Assembly: GCA_030613025.1 (NCBI GenBank)
Contig: JAUWMT010000002.1
Location: 19,945-83,944 of the forward strand
DNA: 64,000 nt
DNA from: Candidatus Cloacimonadota bacterium
GTDB lineage: Bacteria; Cloacimonadota; Cloacimonadia; JGIOTU-2
Direction of reading: 5' to 3'
A model generated the notes under the pieces. That model worked only from the letters and a program-made list of their open reading frames with translations, was not told where the DNA came from and made no database searches. Numbering within the stretch: the stretch's first letter is position 1; each line of letters starts with the position of its first letter. Below are positions 8,860-26,879 of this stretch, in pieces. The position numbers and the translations under genes are program-made.

Positions 8860-8866
8860 AAGTAAC

Positions 8867-11139: not shown

Positions 11140-11174
11140 AGTGTAAGAATAGTTGCAGAGGCAGGGCTATTGCT

Positions 11175-11201: not shown

Positions 11202-11278
11202 AAAGAGGTTAGAGTAGTGGAACTGGTAAAGAGAAAGGAACCTGTCCATTTTGGCGGACATTTTTCAATAAAATACAG

Positions 11279-11355: not shown

Positions 11356-11460
11356 CTTGACACGTTGACAAGCACTAAATGTTTTACCGACCAAATAAGT
11401 TACTTCAAAAGAAATTTATTTTATGATTAGACCTAAAAGCTTGAGTGAGAAAGGACAGAA

Positions 11461-12483
11461 ATGGTCGTTTCAAAATCCGATCTAATTAAATTTTTCTATA
11501 CTATACAATCAGAATTTGATGTTTTTGTTCCATATCAGACTGAGAGAGAAAAGGATGATCTCGTATTCAAAAAATATGATCCTGATAAAGAATTTGTACT
11601 GGATAAATATCGAACTGTCGATCCTGTAAGAACTCTGTTTTATATGCCTTCTGAAAGCGTGCTTCCTCCTTCTGCTAAATCAAACAAGAGGATCATTGCA
11701 GGTGTGAAAAACTGCGATCTGCTTGGGCTTGCAGTTCTGGATGATGCACTTCTCAAGGATAATTTTGTAGAGCCGAATTACAAAATCTGGAGAGATAGCT
11801 CATACATCATAAGCTGCGATTGTACAGATGCGTTATCAACATGTCATTGTATTTTGCTTGATAATAATCCATATCCAAATGATGATACAGAAAGCAATGC
11901 ATTATTTGATATCAATCTTTCTCCGGTTGATGATAAATTCATAATTACAGTTGGCAGCAAGAAGGGTGAAGAACTTATTGAAATGATAAAGGAAGTTTGT
12001 TCACTGGCTGAAATTACTAATAAAGATAAAGAAATTCGTGAGTCAAATCATGCTGAAGTTCTCAAAAAAGTCAGGGATATAAATTCTGATTTCACGCCCG
12101 ACAGAAATTATGATGTCATTACAGAAAATAAGGAAGCTTCTGTATGGAAAGAGTTCTGCAATGAATGTGTTCAGTGTGGCGCATGTACGAATATTTGCCC
12201 GACCTGCTACTGTCTTATTCTTAATGATGAAAGCACTGAAGAAGAATTCCGCAAGGTTCGTTCGTGGGATTCCTGCCAGCTTGTGGGATATGCTGAAGTC
12301 GCTGGCGGTGCTACACCACGTGAACACCGATGGGAAACCTTTAGAAACCGCTATCAATGCAAACACAATTTTATGAAATTTAATTTCGATAAATTAGGAT
12401 GCACGGGCTGTGGACGTTGTATTTCCGCCTGTCCTGCTGAAATCGATTTACGAGAAGTTATTCAAAGTTTACAGGAGGTTTAG
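11461..12483 (+). CDS. FeS subunit related to anaerobic sulfite reductase AsrA / sulfhydrogenase beta (HydB)
   Basis: two Cys clusters CVQCGACTNICPTCYC and CTGCGRCISACPAE; size and cysteine layout typical of AsrA/HydB-like proteins. Confidence 0.65.
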   Translation: MVVSKSDLIKFFYTIQSEFDVFVPYQTEREKDDLVFKKYDPDKEFVLDKYRTVDPVRTLFYMPSESVLPPSAKSNKRIIAGVKNCDLLGLAVLDDALLKDNFVEPNYKIWRDSSYIISCDCTDALSTCHCILLDNNPYPNDDTESNALFDINLSPVDDKFIITVGSKKGEELIEMIKEVCSLAEITNKDKEIRESNHAEVLKKVRDINSDFTPDRNYDVITENKEASVWKEFCNECVQCGACTNICPTCYCLILNDESTEEEFRKVRSWDSCQLVGYAEVAGGATPREHRWETFRNRYQCKHNFMKFNFDKLGCTGCGRCISACPAEIDLREVIQSLQEV

Positions 12484-12484
12484 T

Positions 12485-13312
12485 TTGCCAGACAAAAACC
12501 CCTACGAAGTATTAAAAGCTGATGTCCTCGAAGTAATCGAAGAATCTCCAACGATCAAATCTTTCTATCTCAAGCCGGAGAAACCTTTTGAATTTGCTAC
12601 AGGTCAGTTCATCGAACTGTCATTACCCGGAATTGGTGAGGCGCCATTTACTCCATCATCATCACATTATGAGACGGAAAAAATTTGGGTGTCCATTATG
12701 AATGCCGGATTTGTAACCAATGAAATTCACAAGGTCCAAAAAGGCGATGTGATGGGTATTCGCGGACCCTATGGAAAAGGTTATCCTCTTGATAAATTTA
12801 AAGGAAAAGATGTCCTTCTTCTTGGTGGTGGTGTAGGACTTGCACCTCTTAGATGCCTTCTTCAAACCATGATCCACGATGCCAAAGATTACAAAAGTAT
12901 TACTGTGTGCTTTGGTGCGAGAACACCTGATGATATGATCTACAAGGATCAGATCGATGAATGGAAGTCCGTTGAAGGAATTCATCATCTCTGTACGGTC
13001 GATAAATGTCCTGATGGTGTCAATTGGAATGGAAAAACCGGCGTGGTCACAGTATTGCTTGATGATATCAAGATCGATCCAAAAGATGCGATCGCAATTG
13101 TATGCGGACCCCCTATCATGATGAAATTCGGAACCTTCTCTCTGCTTGATAAAGGTTTTAAGCCGGAGAATATTTATCTGTCTATGGAGAAAAAGATGTA
13201 CTGCGGATTCGGACAGTGCCGCCATTGCGTAATGGGTAAATATTATGCATGCAAAGATGGTCCTGTATTCACCTATGAGCAGATCAAGGACGAAGAAAAA
13301 ATCTGGGAATAA
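12485..13312 (+). CDS. FAD/NAD(P)-binding oxidoreductase with C-terminal [2Fe-2S] (AsrB / sulfhydrogenase gamma HydG-like)
   Basis: ferredoxin-NADP reductase-like fold motifs (GQFIELSLPG, LLLGGGVGLAPL), C-terminal CGFGQCRHCV...C; start set at TTG 12485 preceded by GGAGG at 12472-12476 rather than the overlapping ATG 12410. Confidence 0.7.
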   Translation: MPDKNPYEVLKADVLEVIEESPTIKSFYLKPEKPFEFATGQFIELSLPGIGEAPFTPSSSHYETEKIWVSIMNAGFVTNEIHKVQKGDVMGIRGPYGKGYPLDKFKGKDVLLLGGGVGLAPLRCLLQTMIHDAKDYKSITVCFGARTPDDMIYKDQIDEWKSVEGIHHLCTVDKCPDGVNWNGKTGVVTVLLDDIKIDPKDAIAIVCGPPIMMKFGTFSLLDKGFKPENIYLSMEKKMYCGFGQCRHCVMGKYYACKDGPVFTYEQIKDEEKIWE

Positions 13313-13340
13313 GTTTATATATTAAAGGAAAGACAGTATC

Positions 13341-13847
13341 ATGAAAAGATTATTTGTAGATATACCAAGGCTTCTCAAAGAAGAGATTCTCGAATGCATT
13401 GATTGTGAATATCTTTATCACGAAGGAGCTAATCGCGGTGTATTTTCTATTGTAGAGATCGCAGAATTCGGCGCTTATTGCCGCCAGTGCAAGGAAGCTT
13501 TCTGTATTGAAGCATGCCCAAAGGATGCGCTTGAACATGGTGAAAATAATACTATAATACGTCATAATATGCGCTGTGTGGGTTGCAAAAGCTGTATCCT
13601 TGCCTGTCCATTTGGTACGATCTTTCCGGAGGTTATCAATTATATATCACAGAAATGTGATTTCTGTTTAAATCAATTGGAAAATGACCCGGACTATGTT
13701 CCGCTCTGTGTAAAAACTGCACCAAATGAAACACTTACAATGATCGATATCGATGAAGACGATCCTGAAAATAATATCTATCTTGTGGGCAGCAGAATGG
13801 CAGTGAAAACACATCATTGGCGAAATAAAGTCGGGAAAAATAAATAG
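13341..13847 (+). CDS. 4Fe-4S dicluster ferredoxin-type electron-transfer subunit (HycB/HydN-like)
   Basis: CRQCKEAFCIEACP, CVGCKSCILACP and CDFC...C motifs. Confidence 0.7.
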   Translation: MKRLFVDIPRLLKEEILECIDCEYLYHEGANRGVFSIVEIAEFGAYCRQCKEAFCIEACPKDALEHGENNTIIRHNMRCVGCKSCILACPFGTIFPEVINYISQKCDFCLNQLENDPDYVPLCVKTAPNETLTMIDIDEDDPENNIYLVGSRMAVKTHHWRNKVGKNK

Positions 13848-13875
13848 TGTAGGATGATGAGGTTCAGGAGATAAA

Positions 13876-14805
13876 ATGCTAAAATATTTGTTCTATTTGC
13901 TCGTGTTCCCGGGTTTTCTATTTGCATCTGTATTCGGTCTTATTGTAGGATGGATAGAAAGAAAGGTCAGCGCAAGGGTGCAATTCCGTGTGGGTCCTCC
14001 ATTCTTTCAAAATTTTTATGACGTGTTTAAGCTGTGGGGAAAAGAGATCATTCTTATTAGGAACTCACCATATTTCATATTTATAATTGCACCGATCATT
14101 GCTTTTGCTTCTGTGATAATGACCACTACGATCATTGGCATGTCTTTCTTCTATCATGTTGGCATCGGCGGTGATCTAATTTTCATAATATATCTGATGT
14201 TTATCTATTCAGTATGTTTGATACTTGGTTCATCGTCCACAGGAAATGTATATTCCAGTATTGGTGCAGGCAGAGAAATGAAAATGCTCATTTCCGACGA
14301 ACTCGCTTTCGTGATGGTTATCCTTGTTCCCATCATTCAGGCAGGATATAAGATCGATCTCACACAAATATTAGCATATCAAAACGCCAATGGTATGATC
14401 ATTGGTACTGCTTCAGGTATTATTGCGTTCATCGTTGGTATTCTGTGTCTTCAAGCAAAGATGGGTATGGTACCATTTGATATTGCGGAAGCAGAAACAG
14501 AAATTGTTGGAGGTCCGCTAATGGAGTATTCGGGTCCGCTGCTTGCTTTCTGGAAACTTGCACATTATATGATGTATGTATTCCTGCCTATGCTTCTTGT
14601 TATTCTTTTCTGGGGTGGAATAAGTTTTGCTTCTTTTGGTACGATCATGGCTGGTATCGGGAAGTACTTGCTTATCGTAGTTGTTATGATACTGATAAGA
14701 AATACAAATCCGCGTGTACGTATTGATTCTGCAATTAATTTCTTCTGGAAATGGGCAAGTCCACTTGCTCTTATCGCCGTAATTCTGGCAATCATAGGAG
14801 TGTAA
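13876..14805 (+). CDS. group-4 hydrogenase membrane subunit (NuoH/HycD/MbhM family)
   Basis: 309 aa, 8 TM, conserved NuoH-like loop motifs. Confidence 0.8.
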   Translation: MLKYLFYLLVFPGFLFASVFGLIVGWIERKVSARVQFRVGPPFFQNFYDVFKLWGKEIILIRNSPYFIFIIAPIIAFASVIMTTTIIGMSFFYHVGIGGDLIFIIYLMFIYSVCLILGSSSTGNVYSSIGAGREMKMLISDELAFVMVILVPIIQAGYKIDLTQILAYQNANGMIIGTASGIIAFIVGILCLQAKMGMVPFDIAEAETEIVGGPLMEYSGPLLAFWKLAHYMMYVFLPMLLVILFWGGISFASFGTIMAGIGKYLLIVVVMILIRNTNPRVRIDSAINFFWKWASPLALIAVILAIIGV

Positions 14806-14808
14806 ATT

Positions 14809-15228
14809 ATGGCATTCTATAATAAAATTATTAAAAAATCAATTTGGGTTTTTCACGTCAGTGCAAGCCCCTGTAACAACTGTGATATTGAAATCCTCGA
14901 TCTCATCACTCCCGGATATGACGTAGAACGCTTCGGCATCAAACTTGTTGGCTCTGTCCGTCATGCAGATGTTCTTCTTGTGACAGGTGTAGTGTCCTAT
15001 AAAGTTGCACCACGTATCAAACAACTATATGAGCAAGCAGCAAAGCCTATTTTTGTGATCGGTATCGGAACCTGTACTGCAGGAGGCGCAACCTTCAAAA
15101 CAAGTTACAATACAGCAGGAATACCACTTGAAAAGGTCATTCCTGTAAATGCCTACGTAACTGGCTGCCCCCCGAAACCAGAAGCTATGATAGATGGCGT
15201 ATTAAAATTATTAGGAACATTAAAATGA
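14809..15228 (+). CDS. [NiFe] hydrogenase small subunit, NuoB/MbhJ-like
   Basis: 139 aa, Cys pattern for proximal [4Fe-4S] (SPCNNCDIE ... GTC ... GCPP). Confidence 0.85.
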   Translation: MAFYNKIIKKSIWVFHVSASPCNNCDIEILDLITPGYDVERFGIKLVGSVRHADVLLVTGVVSYKVAPRIKQLYEQAAKPIFVIGIGTCTAGGATFKTSYNTAGIPLEKVIPVNAYVTGCPPKPEAMIDGVLKLLGTLK

Positions 15229-15674
15229 GCGATAAAGATACAGAATTTTTTGATAAATTTCAAGATAAAATAACGAAAGTTATTAAGAAGCCGAAAAGAA
15301 TTTACTTTAATATAAAGAACGAAGATCTGTGGGAGATCGCAGATTATCTCTCTAACACAATGGGCTGCCGTCTTTCTATCTGTACTGCTACAGAGGTATA
15401 TGACGGGCTCGAGGTTCTTTACCATTTTTCTGATGACACAACCGGAATTTATTATAATCCACGCGTCAAAACCGGACTGGAAAATCCTGAAATAAATTCA
15501 ATTACACCACTGATCGAAGGTGCGAACTGGATCGAAAGAGAAATGTATGATCTTTTTGGTATTAAGTTCAAAGGACATCCCAATCTGAAAAAACTACTGA
15601 CAATAAACAATCCGCATTTTAGTGAGGATGACCATCCTATGCGTTTTAATCGCAACAGAACGAAAGAGAAGTAA
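15225..15674 (+). CDS. NuoC/MbhK-like hydrogenase subunit
   Basis: 149 aa, NuoC-family signature region, translationally coupled (ATGA overlap). Confidence 0.75.
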   Translation: MSDKDTEFFDKFQDKITKVIKKPKRIYFNIKNEDLWEIADYLSNTMGCRLSICTATEVYDGLEVLYHFSDDTTGIYYNPRVKTGLENPEINSITPLIEGANWIEREMYDLFGIKFKGHPNLKKLLTINNPHFSEDDHPMRFNRNRTKEK

Positions 15675-15698
15675 CAGGTTTATGCAGAGGAGCATGCA

Positions 15699-16916
15699 AT
15701 GAGTAAATGTAGAATTCCTTTAGGTCCTTTTCATCCACTGCTGGAAGAAGCGGAATTCTTTGATATACAAGTCGAAGGTGAAAAGGTTGTTGATATTGAG
15801 ATGGAAACCGGTTGGATGCATAGAGGTCATGAAAAGATCTCGGAAACAAGATCCTATACGCAGTCAATCTTTCTCGTTGAACGTATTTGCGGAATCTGTT
15901 CAACCTCTCATCCATTTGCAGCAGCACATGCAATGGAAGATATTGATAATGTTGAAATACCTGAAAGGGCACAATATATAAGAATTTTTATTGGAGAAAT
16001 GGAAAGAATTCACAGCCATCTTCTCTGGCTCGGCCTTGCCGGTCATTTTATTGGATATGATACGCTCTGGATGTGGACGTGGAAATATCGCGAACCTGTT
16101 CTTCAAATTTTTGAAAAGGTTTCGGGCAACAGAAATCATTATGCAATGTTCCGTGTTGGCGGTGTAGGTAGAGATTTTGATAATGCATTGATCCCGGAGA
16201 TTCATCCCGTTCTTGATATGCTGGAAAAGAAGATGCTTATGTTAGCCGGCGCAGTTAAAGATGATCCTGTGCTGAGATCACGCCTTAAAGGAGTTGGTGT
16301 CTTGACAAAAGAGGATGCAATAAATTATTGTGCAAATGGACCCACTGCCCGTGCATCCGGTGTGGATATCGATGTACGTCGGGATGACGGGTACGAGTAT
16401 GATCTGATAAATTTTGATGTTATCGTATTGCCCAATGGCGATGTATATGACAAACTTGTTTTGCGTGTGCTGGAGATTATTGAATCGGTTAAAATCATAC
16501 GGCAATGTCTCGATGCATTCCCGAAAGTTGGTGGTGAATATCTTAATAAAGTAAAGCATATTTCTCCAGGAGAAGGCATTGGACGTTATGAAGCACCTCG
16601 TGGTGAAGTGTTTCATTACATACGTAGTGATGGCTCGAACCGTCCTCTTCGTCATAAAGTCCGTGCACCGAGCTTTTCTAATATTCCTACATATAAAGCA
16701 TCCTGTATAGGCATTCCTCTTGCTGATGCACTTATTACTCTTGCTGCTGTTGACCCATGCTATTGCTGTACCGAAAGAAGTATTCGCGTTGTCGATAAAA
16801 ATAATAAAAAATTAGAACATAATCTATTAACCATGTCTCGTGAGAAAACTGCAAATATTAAAAGGGCAGTTGCCGGTAGCGAGAAAACACCCATTGATAG
16901 AATTTTTGAAGATTAG
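15699..16916 (+). CDS. group-4 [NiFe] hydrogenase large (catalytic) subunit, NuoD/MbhL/EchE-like
   Basis: N-terminal RICGICSTSH and C-terminal DPCYCCTER Ni-Fe ligand CxxC pairs retained. Confidence 0.9.
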   Translation: MSKCRIPLGPFHPLLEEAEFFDIQVEGEKVVDIEMETGWMHRGHEKISETRSYTQSIFLVERICGICSTSHPFAAAHAMEDIDNVEIPERAQYIRIFIGEMERIHSHLLWLGLAGHFIGYDTLWMWTWKYREPVLQIFEKVSGNRNHYAMFRVGGVGRDFDNALIPEIHPVLDMLEKKMLMLAGAVKDDPVLRSRLKGVGVLTKEDAINYCANGPTARASGVDIDVRRDDGYEYDLINFDVIVLPNGDVYDKLVLRVLEIIESVKIIRQCLDAFPKVGGEYLNKVKHISPGEGIGRYEAPRGEVFHYIRSDGSNRPLRHKVRAPSFSNIPTYKASCIGIPLADALITLAAVDPCYCCTERSIRVVDKNNKKLEHNLLTMSREKTANIKRAVAGSEKTPIDRIFED

Positions 16917-16941
16917 GATTTCAAAAAGAAAGGGTACATAA

Positions 16942-18756
16942 ATGTGGAATAATTATCTGTTTTTGCTTGTCGTTATCCCGATAATTGCAACTATTATTAA
17001 TCTTTTTGTACCAAAGATTATAAAGAAACTTATCACTCTTGCTTCTGTGATTTGGTCGCTGGTGCTGAGTATCAAAGTGTTCAGCGCATCTACTGTGAGC
17101 TTTTCTCTATTCGGCGTTACGTTATTTCAAACCGATGTTTTATCAAAATTCATTTTGCTTTTCATAAATATTCTCAGTTCAATAATTCTTATTTACTGTC
17201 TTAAAAATGTGAAAAAAGAATATGAAGGTAAATTCTTCCTGCTTTTCACGCTGACAGTCAGTTTCTGCAATGGCGTCGCAGTGAGTTCCAATATGATCGC
17301 TTTTATAATTTTCTGGGGACTTTCCGGGTTGCTCGTGTACCTGTTTGGTATTTTAAATTCTCCAAAAAGCTCAGAAAGTTCGATGAAAGCATTTATCATA
17401 ATAGGAACTTCAGACGTACTTCTTCTATTTGGTTTGGCTGTTATGTATGTTATGACACAGAATTCCAATCTCTACTTAACACAAATTACTCTTTCAAGTG
17501 TGTTGACCTACATTGCATTTTTCTGCCTGCTTCTTGCTGCATTCACAAAAGCAGGTGCTTTCCCGATGCATACCTGGCTTCCAGACTATGCAAAGGATGC
17601 ACCGATCGAAGCCGTGGCAGAACTTCCTGCTGCTATGGATAAGCTGCTTGGAATTTATCTTTTTGCACGTATAATGATGCATCTTTTTGTCTATCCCTTT
17701 GCGATCCAGGCGATCATCATGATAATAGGTGCGCTTACGATAATCTTTGCAGTGATGATGGCGCTTGTTCAGCATAATGGGCGCAAACTGCTGGGATATC
17801 ATGCTGTTAGTCAGGTTGGGTATATGGTATTGGGAATAGGAACAGGTAATCCAATTGGTATTATTGGCGGACTTTTCCACATGCTAAATAATGCAATATA
17901 CAAATCAAGCTTGTTCTTATCTCTTGGTTCTGTTGAAAAGAGGACAGGAACATCTGAACTCGAAAATCTTGGTGGTCTTGCCAGAAAGATGCCTCTTACC
18001 TTTATCGCTGCGCTGATAGGAGCGCTTTCAATATCGGGTATTCCACCATTGAATGGGTTCTTCTCAAAATGGATGGTCTATCAAGGTATTTTGAAAACCG
18101 CTTCACAGCATGGGGCAATCTGGCAGATCATACTAAATGTCTGCTTTGTTCTCGCTGTTTTTGGAAGTGCGCTTACCCTTGCCAGTTTTATTAAATTCAT
18201 ACATGCAATATTCTTGAGCAAATTACCCAAAAAATATGAGGGCGTGAAAGAGATCAGTTTCAATAACTGGTTTGCCAATCTTTTACTCGGCGCTCTTTGT
18301 GTGATTTTTGGCGTGCTCGTATTTGCAATTCCTGTGAAATTATTCTTACTGCCTATAATTGGCGCAGGATCTATTAAAACATTGCTTTTGGGATTTTATA
18401 GTTCAAAGATCATACTTTATTTCTTTGCTGCATCAATTCTGCTCGGTCTTATTATTTATCTTGTATTTAAAAAGATCCGCTTTGATGATGAATATGTCGG
18501 CACCTATCCGACAACTGAAGAGCATAGAGCTACAGGTGTTGAGTTCTATAATGAAATTTCTTCGATGAAACCCTTTAATAAGATCTACGAGTGGGCAAAC
18601 AAGAAGTATTTTGATATATATAAATGGGGAACAGTATTCTCCTTATGGCTTGGCGATGTATTCCACAAGTTACATTCGGGTTTGTTGCATACCTATGCGA
18701 TTTGGATGCTTGCCGGCTTGGTTGTTGTTACAATAATTTTATTGAGTGCAATTTAG
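16942..18756 (+). CDS. MrpA/NuoL-like antiporter-type membrane subunit (MbhH-like)
   Basis: 604 aa polytopic protein with NuoL/MrpA family motifs. Confidence 0.85.
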   Translation: MWNNYLFLLVVIPIIATIINLFVPKIIKKLITLASVIWSLVLSIKVFSASTVSFSLFGVTLFQTDVLSKFILLFINILSSIILIYCLKNVKKEYEGKFFLLFTLTVSFCNGVAVSSNMIAFIIFWGLSGLLVYLFGILNSPKSSESSMKAFIIIGTSDVLLLFGLAVMYVMTQNSNLYLTQITLSSVLTYIAFFCLLLAAFTKAGAFPMHTWLPDYAKDAPIEAVAELPAAMDKLLGIYLFARIMMHLFVYPFAIQAIIMIIGALTIIFAVMMALVQHNGRKLLGYHAVSQVGYMVLGIGTGNPIGIIGGLFHMLNNAIYKSSLFLSLGSVEKRTGTSELENLGGLARKMPLTFIAALIGALSISGIPPLNGFFSKWMVYQGILKTASQHGAIWQIILNVCFVLAVFGSALTLASFIKFIHAIFLSKLPKKYEGVKEISFNNWFANLLLGALCVIFGVLVFAIPVKLFLLPIIGAGSIKTLLLGFYSSKIILYFFAASILLGLIIYLVFKKIRFDDEYVGTYPTTEEHRATGVEFYNEISSMKPFNKIYEWANKKYFDIYKWGTVFSLWLGDVFHKLHSGLLHTYAIWMLAGLVVVTIILLSAI

Positions 18757-18771
18757 TTTAAGTATAATATT

Positions 18772-19026
18772 ATGAACCACGAAATACACCCGTCTCCATT
18801 GCATTACGCCGTTGCAGGCGAAAGAAGCGAAACAATAATTTTCAAAGAAAAAAGTTATGCAATTCAGGATGCTATTTTTGAATTGAGAAAAATGGGTTCA
18901 AATTTAATAAACGAAATTAATAAAATGAAGTTTTGTAGAAAATTTTTCTTAGACACCATTTTCGTGCCTTTCGCCTGTCACGACGGAGCGAAGCGTAGTC
19001 GGATGGTTAAAAGTGTTTATATGTAG
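18772..19026 (+). pseudogene. truncated GxxExxY-family (PD-(D/E)XK-like) mini-element remnant
   Basis: 84-aa ORF whose first ~30 codons (HEIHPSPLHYAVAG...IIFKEKSYAIQDAIFEL) parallel the intact paralogue at 23052; the rest diverges and the GxxExxY motif is lost. Confidence 0.4.
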
Positions 19027-19035
19027 GAGGCTTAA

Positions 19036-19575
19036 GTGCCAGTTGATATTTGGTTGTACTTTATTTTAGGATTCATGATAATCGGTTCGATTGCATGTCT
19101 GGAAATAAAGAATATACTTTCTTCGATCATCACCATTGGTGTGGTTGGATTGGGTTTGTCTTTAGCGTTCCTGTTTTTAGGAGCTCCGGATCTTGCTCTT
19201 GTCCAGTTCGTGTTCGAAATTCTCTGTGTTATCATTTTGATCCGTGCATTTGCCAAACGTTCTATTGAAGTTCGTGCGCTTCGCAGAGATGTGCCTGAAA
19301 CGATCATTGCTATCGTTATTCTGGTAAGCATTTTTGTGCTGAGCATTTTTGCATTCAAAGATCTGCCATCATTTGGAAAGCCAATTGTACGCGTTGCAGA
19401 GCGTTATCTCGCCCAAGCAGGAGTGGAAACAGGTTCTCAAAATATCGTCACCGCCGTTATTCTAAACTATAGAGTATATGATACATTGGGTGAGGTTACT
19501 GTGCTCTTTACCGCAATTTTAGGTGCATTTACCATATTACGTAAAACAGGGAGGAAGAAAAGACATGCAGAATAA
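19036..19575 (+). CDS. MrpB-like N-terminal membrane subunit (MbhD-like)
   Basis: GTG start after AGGAGG; 179 aa, polytopic, position and hydropathy match Mbh/Mrp small subunits. Confidence 0.6.
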   Translation: MPVDIWLYFILGFMIIGSIACLEIKNILSSIITIGVVGLGLSLAFLFLGAPDLALVQFVFEILCVIILIRAFAKRSIEVRALRRDVPETIIAIVILVSIFVLSIFAFKDLPSFGKPIVRVAERYLAQAGVETGSQNIVTAVILNYRVYDTLGEVTVLFTAILGAFTILRKTGRKKRHAE

Positions 19576-20014
19576 TTTTCCAAATGAAGGTATGTCCGTA
19601 ATTGTTAAAACAATTACCCGTTTTACTGTCTGGTTGATCTTCTTATATGGTCTGTATATTGTTATTCATGGTCATCTTTCTCCAGGTGGTGGTTTTGCAG
19701 GCGGCGTGATCGTTGCCCTTTCATTTGTTCACTTGACGCTGGCGTATGGTAAGAATTTCGTCATGGAGCGTGTGAATAAATTTGCCATGAACAGTTTGGA
19801 AGCTATTGCAGCGATCCTTTTTGTGCTCACCGGTCTGATCGGCTTATATGTTATGGGCAATTTCCTCGCAAACTTTATGGGAATCGGTAAATTGTACACG
19901 CTTCTCAGTGCCGGCTACATACCGATGCTGAATATCTTTATTTGCGTGAAGGTCGGCATGGGATTGTATCTTGTGTTCTACTATTTAGCCAGTTTTAAAC
20001 CCAAGGAAGGATAA
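19565..20014 (+). CDS. MnhB-domain membrane subunit (MbhE-like)
   Basis: HGHLSPGGGFAGGVI motif of MnhB domain; start set at ATG 19565 (GGGAGG RBS). Confidence 0.7.
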   Translation: MQNNFPNEGMSVIVKTITRFTVWLIFLYGLYIVIHGHLSPGGGFAGGVIVALSFVHLTLAYGKNFVMERVNKFAMNSLEAIAAILFVLTGLIGLYVMGNFLANFMGIGKLYTLLSAGYIPMLNIFICVKVGMGLYLVFYYLASFKPKEG

Positions 20015-20018
20015 GAAT

Positions 20019-20363
20019 ATGATATTATATATTATGTGCTTTTTCCTCTTTTTGGTCGGCGTTTATGGCGCGATCACAAAAAGAGATCTGATTAAGATAA
20101 TACTTGCAATTGGCATCATGGGTTATTCCGTAAACCTGTTCCTTGTTTTGCTTGCCTATCGCACAGGTGCGCTGGTTCCCATCCTCAAAGAAGGACTTAA
20201 TATTCCAGCCAGCATGATGGTCGATCCTATTCCTCAAGCTCTTGTACTTACATCTATTGTTATTGAACTTGGTATCACTGCACTCATGGCTGCGCTTGCG
20301 ATCAGGATCTATCAAAAATATGATACCTTTGATATTACGAAGATCAGGAGATTACAAGGATGA
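20019..20363 (+). CDS. MrpC/NuoK-like membrane subunit (MbhG-like)
   Basis: 114 aa, 3 TM, NuoK-like. Confidence 0.7.
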   Translation: MILYIMCFFLFLVGVYGAITKRDLIKIILAIGIMGYSVNLFLVLLAYRTGALVPILKEGLNIPASMMVDPIPQALVLTSIVIELGITALMAALAIRIYQKYDTFDITKIRRLQG

Positions 20364-21865
20364 TATTATCACAGTTTATTTTCGTTCCCTTACTCGCTGC
20401 ATTTCTCATCGTTCTCCTTGCCCGTAAAAAAGAAAATTTTGCTGCTGCTATTGCCCTTGCTGCCTGTGCCTGGATTTTAATCGTTTCATTCATTGCGTTC
20501 TTTAAGCTCTCTTCCCACGGAGGTATGATCCTAAACAATACAAGTGGATGGAAAATACCTTATACGATCAGTTTGATCTTGGATAATCTGTCTGCCTTTA
20601 TGCTGATAGTAGTGAATCTTGTTGCCTTTCTTTCAGCATTCTATGCGATCCAGTACATAAATCATTTTACGGGGAAGTGGAATTTCTTTGCGCTTTTTAT
20701 GCTGATGGTAACCGGAATGAATGGAGTGATACTTACAGGTGACTTCTTCAACTTATATGTTTTCATGGAGATAGCGCTCTTTTCTGCCTATGCTCTTGTT
20801 GCCTTTGGTACGGAATCTGAAGAACTGGAGGCAGCATTTAAATATGCCACAATGGGTGCGATAACTTCCACAATGATACTGTTTGGTATTGGAATTCTTT
20901 ATAGTTATACTTCCACACTTACAATGGCGGATGTCGGACTTCAGCTGAGAAGTGCCGGAGCTCCGAAACTGATTTTCCTCGTTTATGGTTTGTTCATTGC
21001 AGGTTTTGGTTTGAAAACTGCACTCGTTCCCTTCCATGCGTGGCTTCCTGATGCCCATCCATCAGCCCCTGCACCGATCTCGGCAATGCTTTCCGGCGTA
21101 CTTATCAAAACACTCGGAGTATATGCGCTTGTGCGAATTTTCTTTAATGTATTCGGAGCGCCAACCGTTGTGTTACAGATACTTATGCTGCTTGGAACTC
21201 TCTCGATCGTAATTGGAGGTTTTCTTTCAATTGTGCAATGGGATTTCAAACGATTGCTGGGATTTAGCAGTGTCAGCCAGATCGGATATGTGGTGATAGG
21301 TTTTGCACTTGGCACACCCCTCGGTATTCTTGGCGGCATTCTTCATCTTTTCTATCATGCGATCTTCAAATCCTTGCTCTTCCTGAACAGCGGAGCAGTT
21401 GAATATGCGACAGATACAAGGGACCTGCGACAACTGGGTGGTCTTTCAAAAGAACTCAAAGTTACTTCGGCAACTAATATGGTTGGAACATTATCAATAT
21501 CTGGAATTCCACCTTTTAATGGCTTCTTCAGCAAGCTCATCATTATCATTGCCTGCATTTCTGCGGGTCAGATCGTTATAGGTATTATTGCTGCACTGGT
21601 GAGTATTGTGACCCTTGCATACTTCCTGAAAGTTCAAAAGCACGCATTTTATGGTAAAAAGGGATCTGCAAAAGTGCTTGAAAAAGTTCCTATTGCAATG
21701 AAAACTGTTATGATCATTCTTGCTGCACTGTGTTTATTGAGTTCAGTTATTATGATCCCATCAATTAGAAAAAATTATTTGAATCCTATAGTGGACACCG
21801 TTATGGGAAGAACTTCATATATCGATAAAATCGAGCCCTATCTTGATAATGGGAGTGTTAAATGA
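20360..21865 (+). CDS. MrpD/NuoM-like antiporter-type membrane subunit
   Basis: 501 aa polytopic, NuoM/MrpD family motifs (WLPDAH, FFNGF). Confidence 0.85.
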   Translation: MILSQFIFVPLLAAFLIVLLARKKENFAAAIALAACAWILIVSFIAFFKLSSHGGMILNNTSGWKIPYTISLILDNLSAFMLIVVNLVAFLSAFYAIQYINHFTGKWNFFALFMLMVTGMNGVILTGDFFNLYVFMEIALFSAYALVAFGTESEELEAAFKYATMGAITSTMILFGIGILYSYTSTLTMADVGLQLRSAGAPKLIFLVYGLFIAGFGLKTALVPFHAWLPDAHPSAPAPISAMLSGVLIKTLGVYALVRIFFNVFGAPTVVLQILMLLGTLSIVIGGFLSIVQWDFKRLLGFSSVSQIGYVVIGFALGTPLGILGGILHLFYHAIFKSLLFLNSGAVEYATDTRDLRQLGGLSKELKVTSATNMVGTLSISGIPPFNGFFSKLIIIIACISAGQIVIGIIAALVSIVTLAYFLKVQKHAFYGKKGSAKVLEKVPIAMKTVMIILAALCLLSSVIMIPSIRKNYLNPIVDTVMGRTSYIDKIEPYLDNGSVK

Positions 21866-22365
21866 AGACAGAAACAAAAAGCAGGATCGTTGTCTTTTTT
21901 CTATCCTTATTAGTTTGGATATTGATAACGATGGTTTTCAGTATTCCCTCTTTGATAGCAGGCGTTATCATGGCACTGATCACTGCGATCTTTGCCGGAG
22001 AGATGCTGATCATAACTGAAAGAAAATTTCATTTGAAACGAGTATGGTACACGATTGAATATCTCGTAAAGTTCATATGGGAACTGTTCAAGGCAAATTT
22101 TAACGTTGCATACATTGTTATCCACCCTCTTCTTCCCATAAAGCCCGGGATCGTGAAAGTTAAAACAAAGCTGAAAAGAGATTCTGCGCTTACCATGCTT
22201 GCAAATTCAATAACCTTAACTCCCGGAACACTAACGGTAGATATCGATGTTGATAACCAGATTTTATACGTGCACTGGATCGATGTGAAATTTACCGATA
22301 TAGAGCAAACCACTGAATTTATAGGTGGTCGATTTGAAAAACTACTCGAGGAGATTTTTGAATGA
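21862..22365 (+). CDS. MrpE-like subunit (MbhA-like)
   Basis: 167 aa, 2 N-terminal TM, operon position. Confidence 0.55.
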   Translation: MKTETKSRIVVFFLSLLVWILITMVFSIPSLIAGVIMALITAIFAGEMLIITERKFHLKRVWYTIEYLVKFIWELFKANFNVAYIVIHPLLPIKPGIVKVKTKLKRDSALTMLANSITLTPGTLTVDIDVDNQILYVHWIDVKFTDIEQTTEFIGGRFEKLLEEIFE

Positions 22366-22703
22366 GAGTTTTTAGATGGTTCATCGGTTTAATTATTATT
22401 GCAGCATTCCTTGTGATAAATTTTGTTGTGTTTACAAACATTCCTTTCAACTATAAGTTGATCAATGTGCTCCTTTTCTGCTCGCTTTTCATCCTGATAC
22501 GAGTCGTGAAAGGACCTTCAGTTGCAGACCGTATTGTTGCGATTGATATTCTTGGAATTTTGATCATCGGAATATGTGCGATCCTTGCTATTGCATTAGA
22601 CCGTTCATATTTTATAGATATTGGAATTGCCTGGGGTCTTCAAAGTTTCATAGGAGCTTTGGCGCTTGCAAAATTCTTAGAAGGGAGGTCGCTCGATGCC
22701 TGA
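22362..22703 (+). CDS. MrpF-like subunit (MbhB-like)
   Basis: 113 aa, 3 TM, overlapping start/stop. Confidence 0.55.
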   Translation: MRVFRWFIGLIIIAAFLVINFVVFTNIPFNYKLINVLLFCSLFILIRVVKGPSVADRIVAIDILGILIIGICAILAIALDRSYFIDIGIAWGLQSFIGALALAKFLEGRSLDA

Positions 22704-23046
22704 TTTAGCAATTAATCAAATTATCGGATATGTCATTATTTGTATTGGTGTTATTTTTGATCTTTTTGGAGTGCTCGGTCTTGTACGTCTTCCTGATGTA
22801 TATAATCGTCTTCAGGCAGCAACGAAAAGTGTGACTTTTGGATCTGCCGGGATACTGTTCGGAGTATTCGTTTACTCTGGTTTCACGTCAATGGGCTTCA
22901 AGGCAATTCTCTGTGCAATATTCATACTGTTGACCTCACCTGTTTCTGCACATGCAATTGCAAAAGCTGCTCACTCAGCAGGAATCAAGCTGACTGACAA
23001 AACAGTTATTGATCTATATCAAGAAGATAAAGAATTACAGAAATAA
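22696..23046 (+). CDS. MrpG-like subunit (MbhC-like)
   Basis: 116 aa, 3 TM. Confidence 0.55.
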   Translation: MPDLAINQIIGYVIICIGVIFDLFGVLGLVRLPDVYNRLQAATKSVTFGSAGILFGVFVYSGFTSMGFKAILCAIFILLTSPVSAHAIAKAAHSAGIKLTDKTVIDLYQEDKELQK

Positions 23047-23051
23047 CAGAT

Positions 23052-23483
23052 ATGAGCCACGAAAACACCAGTCTTCACTACGTTACGCCGTGGCAGGCAC
23101 AAAAGCACACGAAAAGGGATATTATATTTAGAGAGGAATGTTATAAAATCATTGACTGTGCCTTTACCGTTTGGAAGTTATTAGGATATGGTTTTTTAGA
23201 AAAGGTTTATAAGAATGGCTTATTTATCGAGTTAATTGATAAAGGTTTTCAGGCGGAAAAGGAATATCCAATAAAAGTATTCTATAAAGGGAAAGTGATC
23301 GGAGAATATTTTGCAGATATTGTTGTTGATAGGAAAATAATCTTAGAATTAAAAGCAGAAGAAAAATTAAATCTTATTCATCAAGCACAAATTATCAACT
23401 ATCTAAAAGCCTCTAAAATAAAAGTTGGTTTATTAATAAATTATGGCAAAAAGAAATGTGAGTTTAAAAGATTTATATATTAA
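23052..23483 (+). CDS. GxxExxY-family protein (PD-(D/E)XK nuclease-like), inserted inside the hydrogenase operon
   Basis: 143 aa with GFLEKVY (GxxExxY) motif and C-terminal ...IINYLKASKIKVGLLINYG typical of the family; weak RBS; interrupts otherwise coupled operon. Confidence 0.8.
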   Translation: MSHENTSLHYVTPWQAQKHTKRDIIFREECYKIIDCAFTVWKLLGYGFLEKVYKNGLFIELIDKGFQAEKEYPIKVFYKGKVIGEYFADIVVDRKIILELKAEEKLNLIHQAQIINYLKASKIKVGLLINYGKKKCEFKRFIY

Positions 23484-23537
23484 TAATTTTTGTGTCCTTT
23501 TGTGTGATTTTGTGGCTAAATATATCAGGAGAATAAA

Positions 23538-24149
23538 ATGATCATTCCAAAACTTCGTGAATTGGGTGAAGCTATTGTATCACTTTTTTCAAAACCAATA
23601 ACAAGTAAATATCCTTTTACAAAAAAACCCTATGAGCCGGTAAAACAGTTCAAGGGAAAACCAAAATATGATGAAGAAGAATGTGTAGGGTGTGGTTCGT
23701 GTGCTCAGGTATGTCCTGCCGGTGCAATCGATCTTACCGATATACCCGAAGAAGGAAAACGCATATTACAAGTCAATTACACGAATTGCATTTACTGCGG
23801 ACAGTGTGAAGAACACTGTATTACTCAAAAAGGCATCAAGCTTTCTAATGAGTACATAACTGCTACTTTCAGTCCGGACAAAGAAGCAAGCTTCATGAAA
23901 ATTGAAAAAAAGCTTATTGTCTGCCCTATTTGTGGTACAAAGATAGCCACTGAAGATCACATGAACTGGCTAATCGAGAAGATGGGACCAAAAGCTTATG
24001 GAAATCCCAACCTCCTCGCATTCATTCAACTTCGCTATCAGGATCTGCCGGACTCAAAGATAAAGAAAGATACAATACGTAGAGAAGATTATTATAAATT
24101 AATGTGTCCGAGTTGCAGGCACCAGGTTGTTGTAAAAGATGCATTCTGA
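23538..24149 (+). CDS. NuoI/MbhN-like 2x[4Fe-4S] subunit with extra C-terminal Zn-ribbon-like extension
   Basis: CVGCGSCAQVCP and CIYCGQCEEHC clusters; C-terminal CPICG...CPSCRH. Confidence 0.8.
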   Translation: MIIPKLRELGEAIVSLFSKPITSKYPFTKKPYEPVKQFKGKPKYDEEECVGCGSCAQVCPAGAIDLTDIPEEGKRILQVNYTNCIYCGQCEEHCITQKGIKLSNEYITATFSPDKEASFMKIEKKLIVCPICGTKIATEDHMNWLIEKMGPKAYGNPNLLAFIQLRYQDLPDSKIKKDTIRREDYYKLMCPSCRHQVVVKDAF

Positions 24150-26877: not shown

Positions 26878-26879
26878 TA

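What the first reader, a model, noticed from the sequence alone, without database searches (positions are those of the whole stretch)
11461..24149. Group-4 membrane-bound [NiFe] hydrogenase fused in one operon with a full Mrp-type antiporter module and a sulfhydrogenase beta/gamma-like (AsrA/AsrB-like) NAD(P)H module
The catalytic core (NuoH, NuoB, NuoC and NuoD-like subunits, with all four NiFe-ligating Cys retained: RICGICS...DPCYCC) is followed by two MrpA/D-type and five small Mrp-type subunits, as in archaeal Mbh. The operon begins with three soluble redox proteins (11461-13847). Their closest analogues are the beta (AsrA/HydB-like FeS), gamma (AsrB/HydG-like FAD/NAD(P) + 2Fe-2S) and ferredoxin-like subunits of cytoplasmic group-3b sulfhydrogenases. 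A diaphorase-type NAD(P)H input module attached to an ion-pumping group-4 hydrogenase would couple NAD(P)H oxidation, H2 production and ion translocation. That is plausible for a syntrophic fermenter that also has Rnf, H+-PPase and PPDK. I could not match this architecture to a described subgroup from sequence alone.
Basis: partly seen in the sequence, partly recalled or inferred. Interest (0 to 1): 0.6.

Follow-up and report, generated by a model that had tools for sequence, protein, structure and literature searches.

The report
NAD(P)H-linked membrane hydrogenase operon of Cloacimonadota
This uncultured anaerobe has one long operon for a membrane-bound, ion-pumping hydrogen-producing enzyme that also carries a module for using NAD(P)H; nearly all related bacteria keep the same layout, so their hydrogen metabolism is probably wired differently from what current genome models assume.

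Summary
Window 11461-24149 (+) is one tightly packed operon. It encodes homologues of the P. furiosus sulfhydrogenase-I beta and gamma subunits and a three-cluster HycB/CooF-like ferredoxin. These are followed by a group-4 [NiFe] hydrogenase core with all Ni-binding Cys, a full Mrp-type membrane module and a HycF/NuoI-like subunit. hycI and hypFCDE come next.

The organism belongs to Cloacimonadota. In 58 of 61 related loci with enough upstream DNA, the same three genes precede the hydrogenase, usually with 4-nt overlaps. These loci come from Cloacimonadota, Marinimicrobia, KSB1, Ignavibacteria and Calditrichia.

The best reading is a reversible NAD(P)H-linked, ion-translocating hydrogenase that can probably still use ferredoxin. 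It is built like formate hydrogenlyase or CO-hydrogenase, but with a diaphorase as the soluble partner.

- The membrane arm has two antiporter-like subunits, as in MBS and not as in archaeal MBH.
- The 84-aa ORF is spurious.
- A PD-(D/E)XK gene is a lineage-specific insertion.

The architecture is not wholly new. Beta/gamma homologues next to group-4 hydrogenases were noted in 2019, 2020 and 2026, there together with an Fdh-like subunit. Papers on these phyla still treat the enzyme as a ferredoxin-only "group 4g" Mbh. The function has not been tested. I rate it a new variant of a known kind, interest about 0.5.

The parts
11461..12483 (+). SHI-beta/AsrA-like iron-sulfur subunit (340 aa)
   Evidence: Pfam Fer4_22. 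NCBIfam ShyB 137, HydB 117 and AsrA 114 bits, all below cut-offs. PDB 9nez_B E 9e-30 over residues 36-329. 16 Cys are invariant in 60 orthologues.
12485..13312 (+). SHI-gamma/AsrB-like FAD/NAD(P)-binding [2Fe-2S] subunit (275 aa from TTG 12485; the listed ORF starts at GTG 12410)
   Evidence: Pfam FAD_binding_6, NAD_binding_1 and DHODB_Fe-S_bind. PDB 9nez_C E 7e-54. RBS and TTG start. Invariant GGGxGxAPxR, PFTPSS and four 2Fe-2S Cys.
13341..13847 (+). HycB/CooF/HydN-like ferredoxin, predicted three [4Fe-4S] clusters (168 aa)
   Evidence: Pfam Fer4_11. PDB HycB3 7qv7_A E 1.4e-13 and FHL HycB 7z0s_B E 5e-7. Exactly 12 Cys invariant in 67 orthologues. Present in 61 of 61 loci, including those without beta/gamma.
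13876..14805 (+). NuoH/MbhM-like membrane anchor
   Evidence: Pfam NADHdh E 4e-65.
14809..15228 (+). NuoB/MbhJ-like hydrogenase small subunit
   Evidence: Pfam Oxidored_q6. C22, C25, C89 and C120 invariant in 77 orthologues.
15225..15674 (+). NuoC/MbhK-like subunit
   Evidence: Pfam Complex1_30kDa.
15699..16916 (+). [NiFe] hydrogenase large subunit with a C-terminal extension of about 45 aa
   Evidence: Pfam Complex1_49kDa and NiFeSe_Hases. RICGICS and DPCYCC motifs. 6cfw_L E 4e-83. The Cys are invariant.
16942..18756 (+). MbsH'-like antiporter-like subunit with C-terminal extension (604 aa)
   Evidence: Pfam Proton_antipo_M. Best PDB hit 6u8y_X, aligned 8-597 against 6-613, E 1.5e-38.
18757..19035 (.). 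Lineage-specific insertion of about 280 nt holding a non-conserved 84-aa ORF; not part of the complex
   Evidence: No Pfam hit. No syntenic homologue in 60 loci, where this gap is usually 20-100 nt. Clean insertion relative to L005 and L007. Its first 49 nt resemble the start of the PD-(D/E)XK_3 gene. No Rfam match.
19036..19575 (+). MbhD + MbhE fusion (MrpA C-terminal part)
   Evidence: Pfam MbhD and MbhE.
19523..20014 (+). MrpB/MbhF-like subunit
   Evidence: Pfam MnhB.
20019..20363 (+). MrpC/MbhG/NuoK-like subunit
   Evidence: Pfam Oxidored_q2.
20360..21865 (+). MrpD/MbhH-like antiporter-like subunit
   Evidence: Pfam Proton_antipo_M and Proton_antipo_N. 6cfw_H E 4e-75.
21862..22365 (+). MrpE/MbhA-like subunit
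   Evidence: Pfam MNHE.
22362..22703 (+). MrpF/MbhB-like subunit
   Evidence: Pfam MrpF_PhaF.
22696..23046 (+). MrpG/MbhC-like subunit
   Evidence: Pfam PhaG_MnhG_YufB.
23052..23483 (+). PD-(D/E)XK_3 (GxxExxY-type) gene inserted within the operon; not a subunit
   Evidence: Pfam PDDEXK_3 E 1e-38. Absent at this position in L003, L004, L005 and L007, where MrpG and NuoI are 18 nt apart.
23538..24149 (+). HycF/NuoI/MbhN-like 2x[4Fe-4S] subunit with a conserved C-terminal CxxC...CxxC extension (203 aa)
   Evidence: NCBIfam FHL iron-sulfur subunit E 1e-28. PDB HycF 7z0s_F E 2.6e-18, MbhN 6cfw_N E 6e-15. Eight cluster Cys invariant in all 49 orthologues; the extra Cys C129 (49/49), C132, C190 and C193 (46/49 each) conserved.
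24139..24620 (+). HycI-type maturation protease gene, split by a frame change at an A10 run (24274-24284)
   Evidence: Pfam HycI on the C-terminal part. Sequence and frames. The same split occurs in six related Cloacimonadota loci; the gene is in frame elsewhere.
24601..29196 (+). hypF, hypC, hypD, hypE maturation genes
   Evidence: Pfam.

Best explanation
The operon encodes one multi-subunit membrane complex. This is a [NiFe] hydrogenase of the MBH/MBS/complex-I lineage, with a Mrp-derived arm carrying two antiporter-like subunits and a soluble NAD(P)(H) module attached.

**Proposed electron path (inferred):** NAD(P)H, then FAD and [2Fe-2S] in the gamma-like subunit, then the [4Fe-4S] clusters of the beta-like subunit, then three [4Fe-4S] in the HycB/CooF-like connector, then two [4Fe-4S] in the HycF/NuoI-like subunit, then the proximal cluster of the NuoB-like small subunit, and finally the Ni-Fe site, where H+ is reduced to H2. 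The logic is that of formate hydrogenlyase or CO-hydrogenase, with a sulfhydrogenase-type diaphorase in place of FdhH or CODH.

**Energetics (from established redox potentials):** the reaction is near equilibrium and therefore reversible. At low H2, NAD(P)H oxidation can evolve H2 with little or modest ion export, or be driven by the Na+/H+ gradient. At higher H2 it can reduce NAD(P)+ while exporting ions.

**Second donor:** reduced ferredoxin very probably still feeds the same FeS chain. The connector and core persist where beta/gamma have been lost, and two pumps fit the larger driving force of ferredoxin.

**Shown here:** gene content, cofactor-binding residues, homology to solved subunits, and conserved, translationally coupled synteny. 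**Inferred:** physical attachment, the electron path, nucleotide specificity, direction, and the ion used.
For: 1. Homology with retained cofactor ligands: beta to 9nez_B (E 9e-30), gamma to 9nez_C (E 7e-54), and the connector to HycB-type proteins. Invariant Cys number 16 in beta, 4 in gamma and 12 in the connector. The nucleotide- and FAD-binding motifs are invariant.
2. The terminal FeS subunit resembles HycF, which receives electrons from HycB in FHL, more than MbhN.
3. Synteny: 58 of 61 loci from Cloacimonadota, Neomarinimicrobiota, KSB1, Ignavibacteria/Melioribacter and Calditrichia carry beta, gamma and connector directly upstream of NuoH-B-C-D. Median gaps are -4 nt for gamma to connector and for connector to NuoH. 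In L081 nearly every junction from beta to MrpG overlaps by a few nt, mostly 4.
4. The enzyme looks functional: Ni-binding Cys and small-subunit Cys are invariant, and hycI and hypFCDE are adjacent.
5. Independent published AlphaFold3 modelling of group-4b clusters carrying SHI-beta/gamma homologues places them on the FeS network of the membrane hydrogenase (PMC13582414).
6. No siroheme AsrC gene and no group-3 large or small subunit genes lie nearby to serve as alternative partners.
Against: - No multimer model or biochemical data exist for this clade, so attachment rests on gene order alone.
- Beta (L019) or beta plus gamma (L003, L009) are missing in 3 of 61 loci while the rest is intact. 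The module is therefore dispensable and another donor must exist.
- NAD(P)H to H2 is endergonic by about 18 kJ/mol under standard conditions. A two-pump arm seems oversized for that couple.
- Beta and gamma score below every NCBIfam equivalog cut-off, so their activity cannot simply be transferred from SHI or Asr.
- Published metabolic reconstructions treat the enzyme as ferredoxin-dependent (PMC8542988, PMC9324843).
Confidence: 0.55

Rival explanations
1. Ferredoxin-only Mbh-Mrp hydrogenase, as published for these phyla. The beta/gamma pair is a separate soluble NAD(P)H oxidoreductase, co-transcribed for redox balancing but not bound to the membrane complex. For example, it might act with free ferredoxin.
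For: - The core and connector persist without beta/gamma in L003 and L009.
- Two antiporter-like subunits suit the ferredoxin/H+ couple.
- The literature assigns Fd dependence.
Against: - 95% co-occurrence across five phylum-level groups, with 4-nt overlaps into the connector and NuoH genes, is typical of subunits of one complex.
- A free NAD(P)H:ferredoxin reductase would run uphill.
- The connector is HycB-like and the terminal subunit HycF-like, which is the arrangement that docks a soluble dehydrogenase in FHL.
Confidence: 0.2
2. An electron-confurcating/bifurcating membrane hydrogenase. Ferredoxin and NAD(P)H are oxidised together to make H2 (or the reverse), as proposed for group-4b clusters that carry SHI-beta/gamma and an Fdh-like protein.
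For: - PMC13582414 proposes a branched FeS network and bifurcation for related 4b clusters.
- Both a ferredoxin-type entry and an NAD(P)H entry are plausible here.
Against: - The third branch, the Fdh-like/molybdopterin subunit, is absent in the window and in the upstream ORFs sampled from ten loci.
- The FNR/PyrK-type flavin of gamma is not a known bifurcating site. SHI itself is not bifurcating (my own knowledge).
- There is no second flavoprotein in the operon.
Confidence: 0.1
3. The beta/gamma module is an alternative acceptor site for sulfur, polysulfide or sulfite, as in 'sulfhydrogenase' or AsrAB. The complex would then couple H2 or ferredoxin oxidation to sulfur-compound reduction.
For: - The closest named families are sulfhydrogenase beta/gamma and AsrA/AsrB.
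- The membrane arm is MBS-like, and MBS is a sulfane-sulfur reductase.
Against: - There is no AsrC/siroheme subunit.
- Scores fall below the AsrA and AsrB cut-offs.
- The Ni-Fe ligands are intact, unlike in MBS.
- The S0-reductase activity of SHI is generally regarded as non-physiological (my own knowledge).
Confidence: 0.05

Closest known systems
Pyrococcus furiosus membrane-bound hydrogenase MBH (PDB 6CFW; HydDB group 4d)
   Same: The [NiFe] large subunit is its best solved match (E 4e-83). NuoB/C/H/I-like subunits, an MrpD-like MbhH (E 4e-75), the MrpB/C/E/F/G and MbhD/E modules, and Hyp/HycI maturation are shared.
   Different: MBH has a single antiporter-like subunit plus MbhI. It takes electrons from free ferredoxin at MbhN, has no HycB-like connector and no beta/gamma, and has a different gene order.
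[quoted passage not shown]
   Same: It has a second antiporter-like subunit, MbsH', with a C-terminal lateral helix and extra TM helices. The 604-aa subunit aligns to it end to end (PMC8165549).
   Different: MBS has lost the Ni-Fe ligands and reduces polysulfide. Here all four Cys are invariant.
Pyrococcus furiosus soluble hydrogenase I / sulfhydrogenase (PDB 9NEZ; group 3b)
   Same: Its beta and gamma subunits are the closest solved relatives of the first two genes, with FeS, FAD and NAD(P) motifs retained.
   Different: SHI is cytoplasmic, and its beta/gamma dock on a group-3 alpha/delta dimer. Here they precede a group-4 membrane enzyme and score below the ShyB/HydB/HydG/ShyC equivalog cut-offs.
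Formate hydrogenlyase (E. coli FHL-1, PDB 7Z0S) and the Thermococcus Fdh-Mfh-Mnh / CODH-Mch-Mnh complexes (groups 4a/4b/4c)
   Same: The modular logic is the same: soluble dehydrogenase, HycB/CooF polyferredoxin, HycF-like subunit, then membrane [NiFe] hydrogenase with or without Mrp.
   Different: Their donor is formate or CO. Here the soluble partner is an FAD/NAD(P) diaphorase, and the connector has three rather than four predicted clusters.
'Mbh-Mrp-oxidoreductase type' clusters of Saganbacteria/Elusimicrobia, and group-4b clusters with SHI-beta/gamma plus a Cys-less Fdh-like protein (PMC6349859; bioRxiv 10.1101/765248; PMC13582414)
   Same: asrA/asrB (SHI-beta/gamma) and cooF-like genes lie next to a group-4 hydrogenase with Mrp subunits. 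Function is unknown, and NADP(H) coupling has been proposed.
   Different: Those clusters include a molybdopterin/Fdh-like subunit as a third branch and are placed in group 4b. No such gene is in the window operon or among the ten upstream ORFs checked, and the enzyme is called 4g.
Anaerobic sulfite reductase AsrABC
   Same: AsrA and AsrB are homologous to the first two genes (TIGR02910 E 1e-32; TIGR02911 E 2e-65).
   Different: Scores are below the equivalog cut-offs (114 vs 323 bits; 221 vs 289 bits), and there is no AsrC siroheme subunit nearby.

Membership tests
Group 4 (respiratory, membrane-bound) [NiFe] hydrogenase | Large subunit with N-terminal RxCGxC and C-terminal DPCxxC Ni-Fe ligands on a NuoD-like fold | tested here: met
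   RICGICS and DPCYCC are present. C64, C67, C354 and C357 are invariant in 81 sequences. Pfam Complex1_49kDa and NiFeSe_Hases hit.
Group 4 (respiratory, membrane-bound) [NiFe] hydrogenase | NuoB-like small subunit with one proximal [4Fe-4S], plus NuoC-, NuoH- and NuoI-like partners | tested here: met
   Oxidored_q6 with four invariant Cys. Complex1_30kDa, NADHdh and a 2x[4Fe-4S] HycF/NuoI-like subunit are present.
Group 4 (respiratory, membrane-bound) [NiFe] hydrogenase | Maturation machinery (Hyp proteins, C-terminal endopeptidase) | tested here: inconclusive
   hypF, C, D and E are present. hycI is present but needs a frame change at an A10 run. hypA and hypB are not in the stretch examined.
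HydDB subgroup 4g | Assignment by the HydDB classifier or phylogeny of the large subunit | not testable with these tools
   HydDB could not be run. A 95.6%-identical orthologue (Ca. Celaenobacter antarcticus, L003) is published as group 4g (PMC8542988). [quoted passage not shown]
Archaeal MBH (group 4d, MbhA-N) | One antiporter-like subunit (MbhH) plus MbhI; 14 subunits; ferredoxin docks on MbhN | tested here: not met
   Two antiporter-like subunits are present, and the first is MbsH'-like over its full length. No MbhI-like gene is present. There are extra HycB-like, beta and gamma subunits.
Mrp-type antiporter module | Homologues of MrpA (N- and C-terminal parts), B, C, D, E, F and G | tested here: met
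   Proton_antipo_M twice, MbhD and MbhE, MnhB, Oxidored_q2, MNHE, MrpF_PhaF and PhaG_MnhG_YufB.
Sulfhydrogenase (group 3b) beta/gamma subunits | Equivalog-level match to HydB/ShyB and HydG/ShyC | tested here: not met
   Bit scores against cut-offs: 137 vs 690 (ShyB), 117 vs 750 (HydB), 194 vs 650 (HydG), 181 vs 600 (ShyC).
Sulfhydrogenase (group 3b) beta/gamma subunits | Homologous fold with FeS, FAD and NAD(P) binding residues | tested here: met
   phmmer to 9nez_B E 9e-30 and to 9nez_C E 7e-54. Cys and GGGxGxAPxR motifs are invariant.
Sulfhydrogenase (group 3b) beta/gamma subunits | Partnered with group-3 alpha/delta hydrogenase subunits | tested here: not met
   The only hydrogenase genes in the operon are group-4 type.
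Anaerobic sulfite reductase AsrABC | AsrA and AsrB equivalogs together with siroheme subunit AsrC | tested here: not met
   Scores are 114 vs 323 and 221 vs 289 bits. No AsrC-like gene lies in 8000-27000.
FHL-type modular hydrogenase (soluble dehydrogenase + HycB-like + HycF-like + membrane core) | HycB/CooF-type polyferredoxin and HycF-like subunit encoded with the core | tested here: met
   Fer4_11 protein with 12 invariant Cys. The terminal subunit's best NCBIfam hit is the FHL iron-sulfur subunit, with HycF 7z0s_F at E 2.6e-18.
FHL-type modular hydrogenase (soluble dehydrogenase + HycB-like + HycF-like + membrane core) | Physical assembly of the soluble module on the membrane complex | not testable with these tools
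   No multimer prediction or biochemistry was available. Only synteny and overlapping genes support it.

The most novel reading that the evidence does not exclude
A whole clade of 'group 4g' enzymes, spread across the FCB superphylum (Cloacimonadota, Marinimicrobia, KSB1, Ignavibacteria, Calditrichia), is a hydrogen-evolving analogue of complex I. It would have acquired an NAD(P)H input module (SHI-type beta/gamma plus a three-cluster connector) independently of NuoEFG. It would couple NAD(P)H/H2 interconversion directly to a Na+/H+ gradient in a single complex. This would give abundant uncultured fermenters and syntrophs a route from NAD(P)H to H2 that needs neither a confurcating [FeFe] hydrogenase nor an Rnf-plus-Ech relay.
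Probability: 0.35. Interest if true: 0.75.

Novelty: new variant of a known kind. Interest (0 to 1): 0.5.

Why it matters
Cloacimonadota and Marinimicrobia are abundant in anaerobic digesters, oxygen-minimum zones and sediments. Their genome-based models count this enzyme as a plain ferredoxin-dependent Mbh.

If the conserved beta/gamma module really connects NAD(P)H to the membrane hydrogenase, three things follow:
1. The redox and energy budgets of these organisms change. NAD(P)H re-oxidation to H2 would be linked to the ion gradient and would depend strongly on H2 partial pressure.
2. The uncharacterised HydDB class 4g gains a testable function for one large, coherent subclade.
3. It adds a second, independent example of a complex-I-like scaffold recruiting a pyridine-nucleotide module. 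That bears on how complex I acquired NuoEFG.

It would also be a candidate enzyme for NAD(P)H-driven H2 production in biotechnology.

Tried and rejected
- **Promoter/terminator scan of 10000-27500.** 13 terminator-like sites were found against 11.3 expected from shuffles, and none lies between the soluble and membrane genes. The sigma-70 consensus probably does not apply to this phylum, so the scan is uninformative.
- **Rfam on the whole window and on the 280-nt insertion.** Only one tRNA was found, at 39517-39590, and nothing in the insertion.
- **BLASTP of the 84-aa ORF against the PD-(D/E)XK_3 protein.** There is no protein similarity. Only 49 nt at the 5' end are alike.
- **L002, the closest single-cell genome.** The operon is broken after the first antiporter gene and followed by unrelated genes. 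I treated this as a rearrangement or chimera.
- **Fdh-like/molybdopterin gene upstream of beta.** This would place the operon in the published 'Mbh-Mrp-oxidoreductase' type. I ran Pfam on upstream ORFs from ten loci, including the largest ones. They were histidine kinases, a helicase, a tRNA synthetase, a heparinase, RF3, an amylase, a receiver domain and similar. None was Fdh-like.
- **Literature searches** for Melioribacter/Ignavibacterium, Marinimicrobia, Caldithrix and Aegiribacteria descriptions of this enzyme found no mention of the beta/gamma link.
- **The SHI structure paper (PubMed 40570843)** is not held, so the cluster count of SHI beta could not be taken from it.
- **Not run:** structure prediction and fold search, because the sequence matches to solved chains were already decisive and complexes cannot be modelled with the tool. 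The metagenome scan, the third homologue search and the representative-library search would only have returned more close relatives.

Full report
**1. What is there**

Window 11461-24149 carries a run of + strand genes separated by short gaps or overlaps. Pfam and NCBIfam assign them as follows:
- A Fer4_22 protein most like sulfhydrogenase beta (ShyB/HydB) and AsrA.
- An FAD_binding_6 / NAD_binding_1 / DHODB_Fe-S_bind protein most like hydrogenase gamma, AsrB and HydG.
- A Fer4_11 ferredoxin of the HydN/HycB/CooF/DmsB type.
- NuoH-, NuoB-, NuoC- and NuoD-like subunits.
- A 604-aa antiporter-like subunit.
- An MbhD/MbhE fusion, then MrpB, MrpC, MrpD, MrpE, MrpF and MrpG.
- A PD-(D/E)XK_3 protein.
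- A 203-aa 2x[4Fe-4S] subunit whose best named family is the formate hydrogenlyase iron-sulfur subunit.

The large subunit has RICGICS and DPCYCC. Its best solved relative is P. furiosus MbhL (6cfw_L, E 4e-83), ahead of HycE (E 3e-61) and complex-I Nqo4.

The operon continues directly into a HycI-type protease gene and hypF, hypC, hypD and hypE. The gamma gene most likely begins at TTG 12485, 5 nt after an AGGAGG. This agrees with where the alignment to SHI gamma begins.

**2. Whose genome**

The large subunit is 96-97% identical to the orthologues in Cloacimonadota single-cell and metagenome genomes, including Ca. Celaenobacter antarcticus. It is 67-73% identical to orthologues in Neomarinimicrobiota, KSB1, Ignavibacteria/Melioribacter and Calditrichia.

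**3. Is the soluble module really part of it?**

I fetched 80 genome loci with a large-subunit profile and searched each for all 19 window proteins.
- Of 61 loci with at least 4.4 kb upstream of the large subunit, 58 carry beta, gamma and the ferredoxin directly upstream of NuoH. The ferredoxin is present in all 61.
- Median gaps are -4 nt for gamma to ferredoxin and for ferredoxin to NuoH, the signature of overlapping stop and start codons.
- In a locus from a 2.4-Mb contig, nearly every junction from beta to MrpG overlaps by a few nt, mostly 4.
- No terminator-like site above background separates the soluble genes from the membrane genes in the window.

The exceptions are informative.
- In Ca. 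Celaenobacter antarcticus (L003) and in L009, beta and gamma are absent but the ferredoxin and everything downstream remain.
- In L009 and L014, a histidine kinase and/or receiver gene sits directly upstream of NuoH.
- In L019 the beta region has no ORF.

So the ferredoxin behaves as a core subunit. Beta/gamma behave as a nearly universal but dispensable peripheral add-on.

**4. Are the proteins functional?**
- Beta aligns to the solved P. furiosus SHI beta chain (9nez_B, E 9e-30, residues 36-329). Gamma aligns to SHI gamma (9nez_C, E 7e-54).
- Across 60-67 orthologues, 16 Cys in beta, the four [2Fe-2S] Cys in gamma and exactly 12 Cys in the ferredoxin are invariant. Twelve Cys imply three [4Fe-4S] clusters rather than the four of HycB.
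- The nucleotide-binding GGGxGxAPxR motif and the flavin-binding PFTPSS motif of gamma are invariant.
- The small subunit keeps four invariant Cys. The HycF-like subunit keeps eight, plus a conserved C-terminal CxxC...CxxC pair that MbhN lacks.
- An invariant Asp198 in gamma sits about where SHI gamma has Thr-Arg. In my own reading of FNR-family enzymes this hints at NADH rather than NADPH. The alignment there is ambiguous, so I give the hint little weight.

**5. Anatomy compared with solved complexes**
- The 501-aa antiporter-like subunit is MbhH-like (6cfw_H, E 4e-75).
- The 604-aa one aligns end to end with MbsH' of the sulfane-sulfur reductase MBS (6u8y_X, residues 8-597 against 6-613).
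- According to PMC8165549, MBH has one antiporter-like subunit and MBS has two. In MBS the lateral helix and TMH15-16 of MbsH' take the place of MbhI.
- The enzyme here is therefore a hybrid: a true hydrogenase catalytic module on an MBS-like two-pump arm, with no MbhI.
- The terminal FeS subunit resembles HycF (7z0s_F, E 2.6e-18) slightly more than MbhN (E 6e-15). The ferredoxin resembles HycB-type connectors (HDCR HycB3, E 1.4e-13).
- This is the arrangement by which FHL and CO-dependent hydrogenases plug a soluble dehydrogenase into the membrane core.

**6. Mechanism**

The best-supported model is a single complex. A sulfhydrogenase-type diaphorase (gamma with FAD and 2Fe-2S; beta with several 4Fe-4S) is wired through the three-cluster ferredoxin and the HycF-like subunit to the small subunit and the Ni-Fe site.

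From textbook potentials (NAD+/NADH -320 mV; H+/H2 -414 mV at 1 atm), NAD(P)H to H2 costs about +18 kJ/mol under standard conditions. It becomes favourable only around 10-100 Pa H2. The enzyme should therefore be reversible and sensitive to H2 partial pressure. It would either draw on or feed the ion gradient.

Ferredoxin probably remains a donor, for two reasons: the core survives loss of beta/gamma, and two pumps fit the larger ferredoxin/H+ span.

Shown here are gene content, ligands, homology and synteny. Inferred are assembly, the electron path, direction, nucleotide specificity and the ion used.

**7. Rivals**
1. A ferredoxin-only Mbh with a merely co-transcribed soluble beta/gamma enzyme. 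The beta/gamma-less variants support it. Against it stand the 95% linkage, the overlapping genes and the FHL-like connector logic.
2. A confurcating or bifurcating enzyme, as proposed for group-4b relatives in PMC13582414. Here the Fdh-like third branch and any plausible bifurcating flavin are missing.
3. A sulfur- or sulfite-reducing role for beta/gamma. There is no AsrC, the scores are below cut-off and the Ni-Fe site is intact.

**8. What is already known**
- The Ace Lake studies classify the Cloacimonadota, Omnitrophota and Auribacterota enzymes as 'group 4g Mbh linked to Mrp' and model them as ferredoxin-dependent. They do not mention beta/gamma.
- Matheus Carnevali et al. 2019 described an 'enigmatic' Saganbacteria group-4 cluster with Mrp subunits, a molybdopterin oxidoreductase, cooF, asrA and asrB that 'might compose an oxidoreductase module'.
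- Meheust et al. 2020 named a 'Mbh-Mrp-oxidoreductase type' of unknown function.
- A September 2026 paper reports SHI-beta/gamma homologues in group-4b clusters with a Cys-less Fdh-like protein. From AlphaFold3 models it proposes a three-branched FeS network.

The idea of a beta/gamma module on a group-4 hydrogenase is therefore in print. Three things appear new:
- The Fdh-less version.
- Its near-universal presence in a large FCB-superphylum clade currently filed under 4g.
- Its combination with an MBS-like two-pump arm.

No biochemical test exists for any of these enzymes.

**9. Verdict**

I rate it a new variant of a known kind. Interest is 0.5: a specialist would find it a worthwhile and testable lead rather than a surprise. 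The most novel reading is an NAD(P)H-linked, ion-coupled 'hydrogen-evolving complex I' across the FCB superphylum. It is not excluded, and I put its probability at about 0.35.

Noticed in passing
window 24139-24620 (A-run at 24274-24284); also L003, L004, L005, L007, L013, L014: The hycI maturation-protease gene is split. The N-terminal 48 codons end in a K-run encoded by A10, and the rest of a normal HycI continues in the -1 frame. The same split, at an A10 or A11 run, occurs in six other Cloacimonadota genomes from independent assemblies. Both halves are conserved there (62-87% and 44-84% amino-acid identity). The gene is in frame in L011 (A9) and in the other phyla. This suggests expression by transcriptional or ribosomal slippage rather than an assembly error or a dead gene. 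However, the required shift is not the same in every genome.
   Followed up: partly
window 23052-23483 and 18757-19035; L009 2149-2481; L019 1299-2133 and 13051-13416; L017: Small PD-(D/E)XK_3 (GxxExxY-type) genes sit in intergenic gaps of this operon and of the neighbouring complex, at different positions in different genomes. The copy at 23052-23483 is absent from the closest relatives. The 280-nt insertion between the first antiporter gene and MbhD/E shares its first 49 nt (84% identity) with the start of that gene and looks like a decayed copy. They behave like small mobile insertions that tolerate, or exploit, operon read-through.
   Followed up: partly
L003 403-7476; L009 190-5546; L019 269-5713 (not in the window): In three relatives a second complex-I-like cluster lies directly upstream. 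It has NuoL/M-, NuoH-, NuoB- and NuoD-like genes, and the NuoD-like protein lacks the Ni-Fe Cys. It also has a 617-621-aa fusion of a NuoI-like 2x[4Fe-4S] domain to a GltD/NfnB-like NAD(P)H flavoprotein (Fer4_20 + Pyr_redox_2). L003 and L019 also have a CBS-pair protein there. This is an Ehr/Mbx-like complex with its own built-in pyridine-nucleotide module. Where beta/gamma are missing (L003, L009), the ferredoxin gene lies just downstream of this cluster.
   Followed up: partly
L081 7432-9474; L036, L062, L068, L074 upstream of beta; L009 6408-7703; L014 102-500; L020 5465-5833 and similar: Signalling genes cluster with the operon. In KSB1-type loci a 680-aa protein that joins a [FeFe]-hydrogenase H-cluster domain to a histidine kinase (a likely H2 sensor) lies upstream. 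In many Marinimicrobia-type loci a CheY-like receiver lies 24-65 nt upstream of beta. In two Cloacimonadota loci a kinase and/or receiver gene sits directly upstream of NuoH. This suggests H2- or redox-responsive control.
   Followed up: partly
window 6607-11139: In the closest relatives (L005, L006, L007) the H+-pyrophosphatase gene lies 350-570 nt upstream of beta. The window has about 4.7 kb more in between. It encodes a caspase/CARDB protein, an FGE-sulfatase-domain protein and a DUF4384 protein, so this is a lineage-specific insertion.
   Followed up: no
window 23538-24149 (residues C129, C132, C190, C193): The HycF/NuoI-like subunit has a C-terminal extension of about 60 residues with a conserved CxxC...CxxC pair (46-49 of 49 orthologues). 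P. furiosus MbhN lacks it. It could be a zinc ribbon or an extra metal site, and it is a candidate docking surface for the connector.
   Followed up: no
L001 8317-8920: The closest metagenome relative has a run of about 600 N exactly in the gap between the first antiporter gene and MbhD/E, where the window has its 280-nt insertion. This is probably a scaffolding gap caused by a repeated element, but what lies there could not be read.
   Followed up: no
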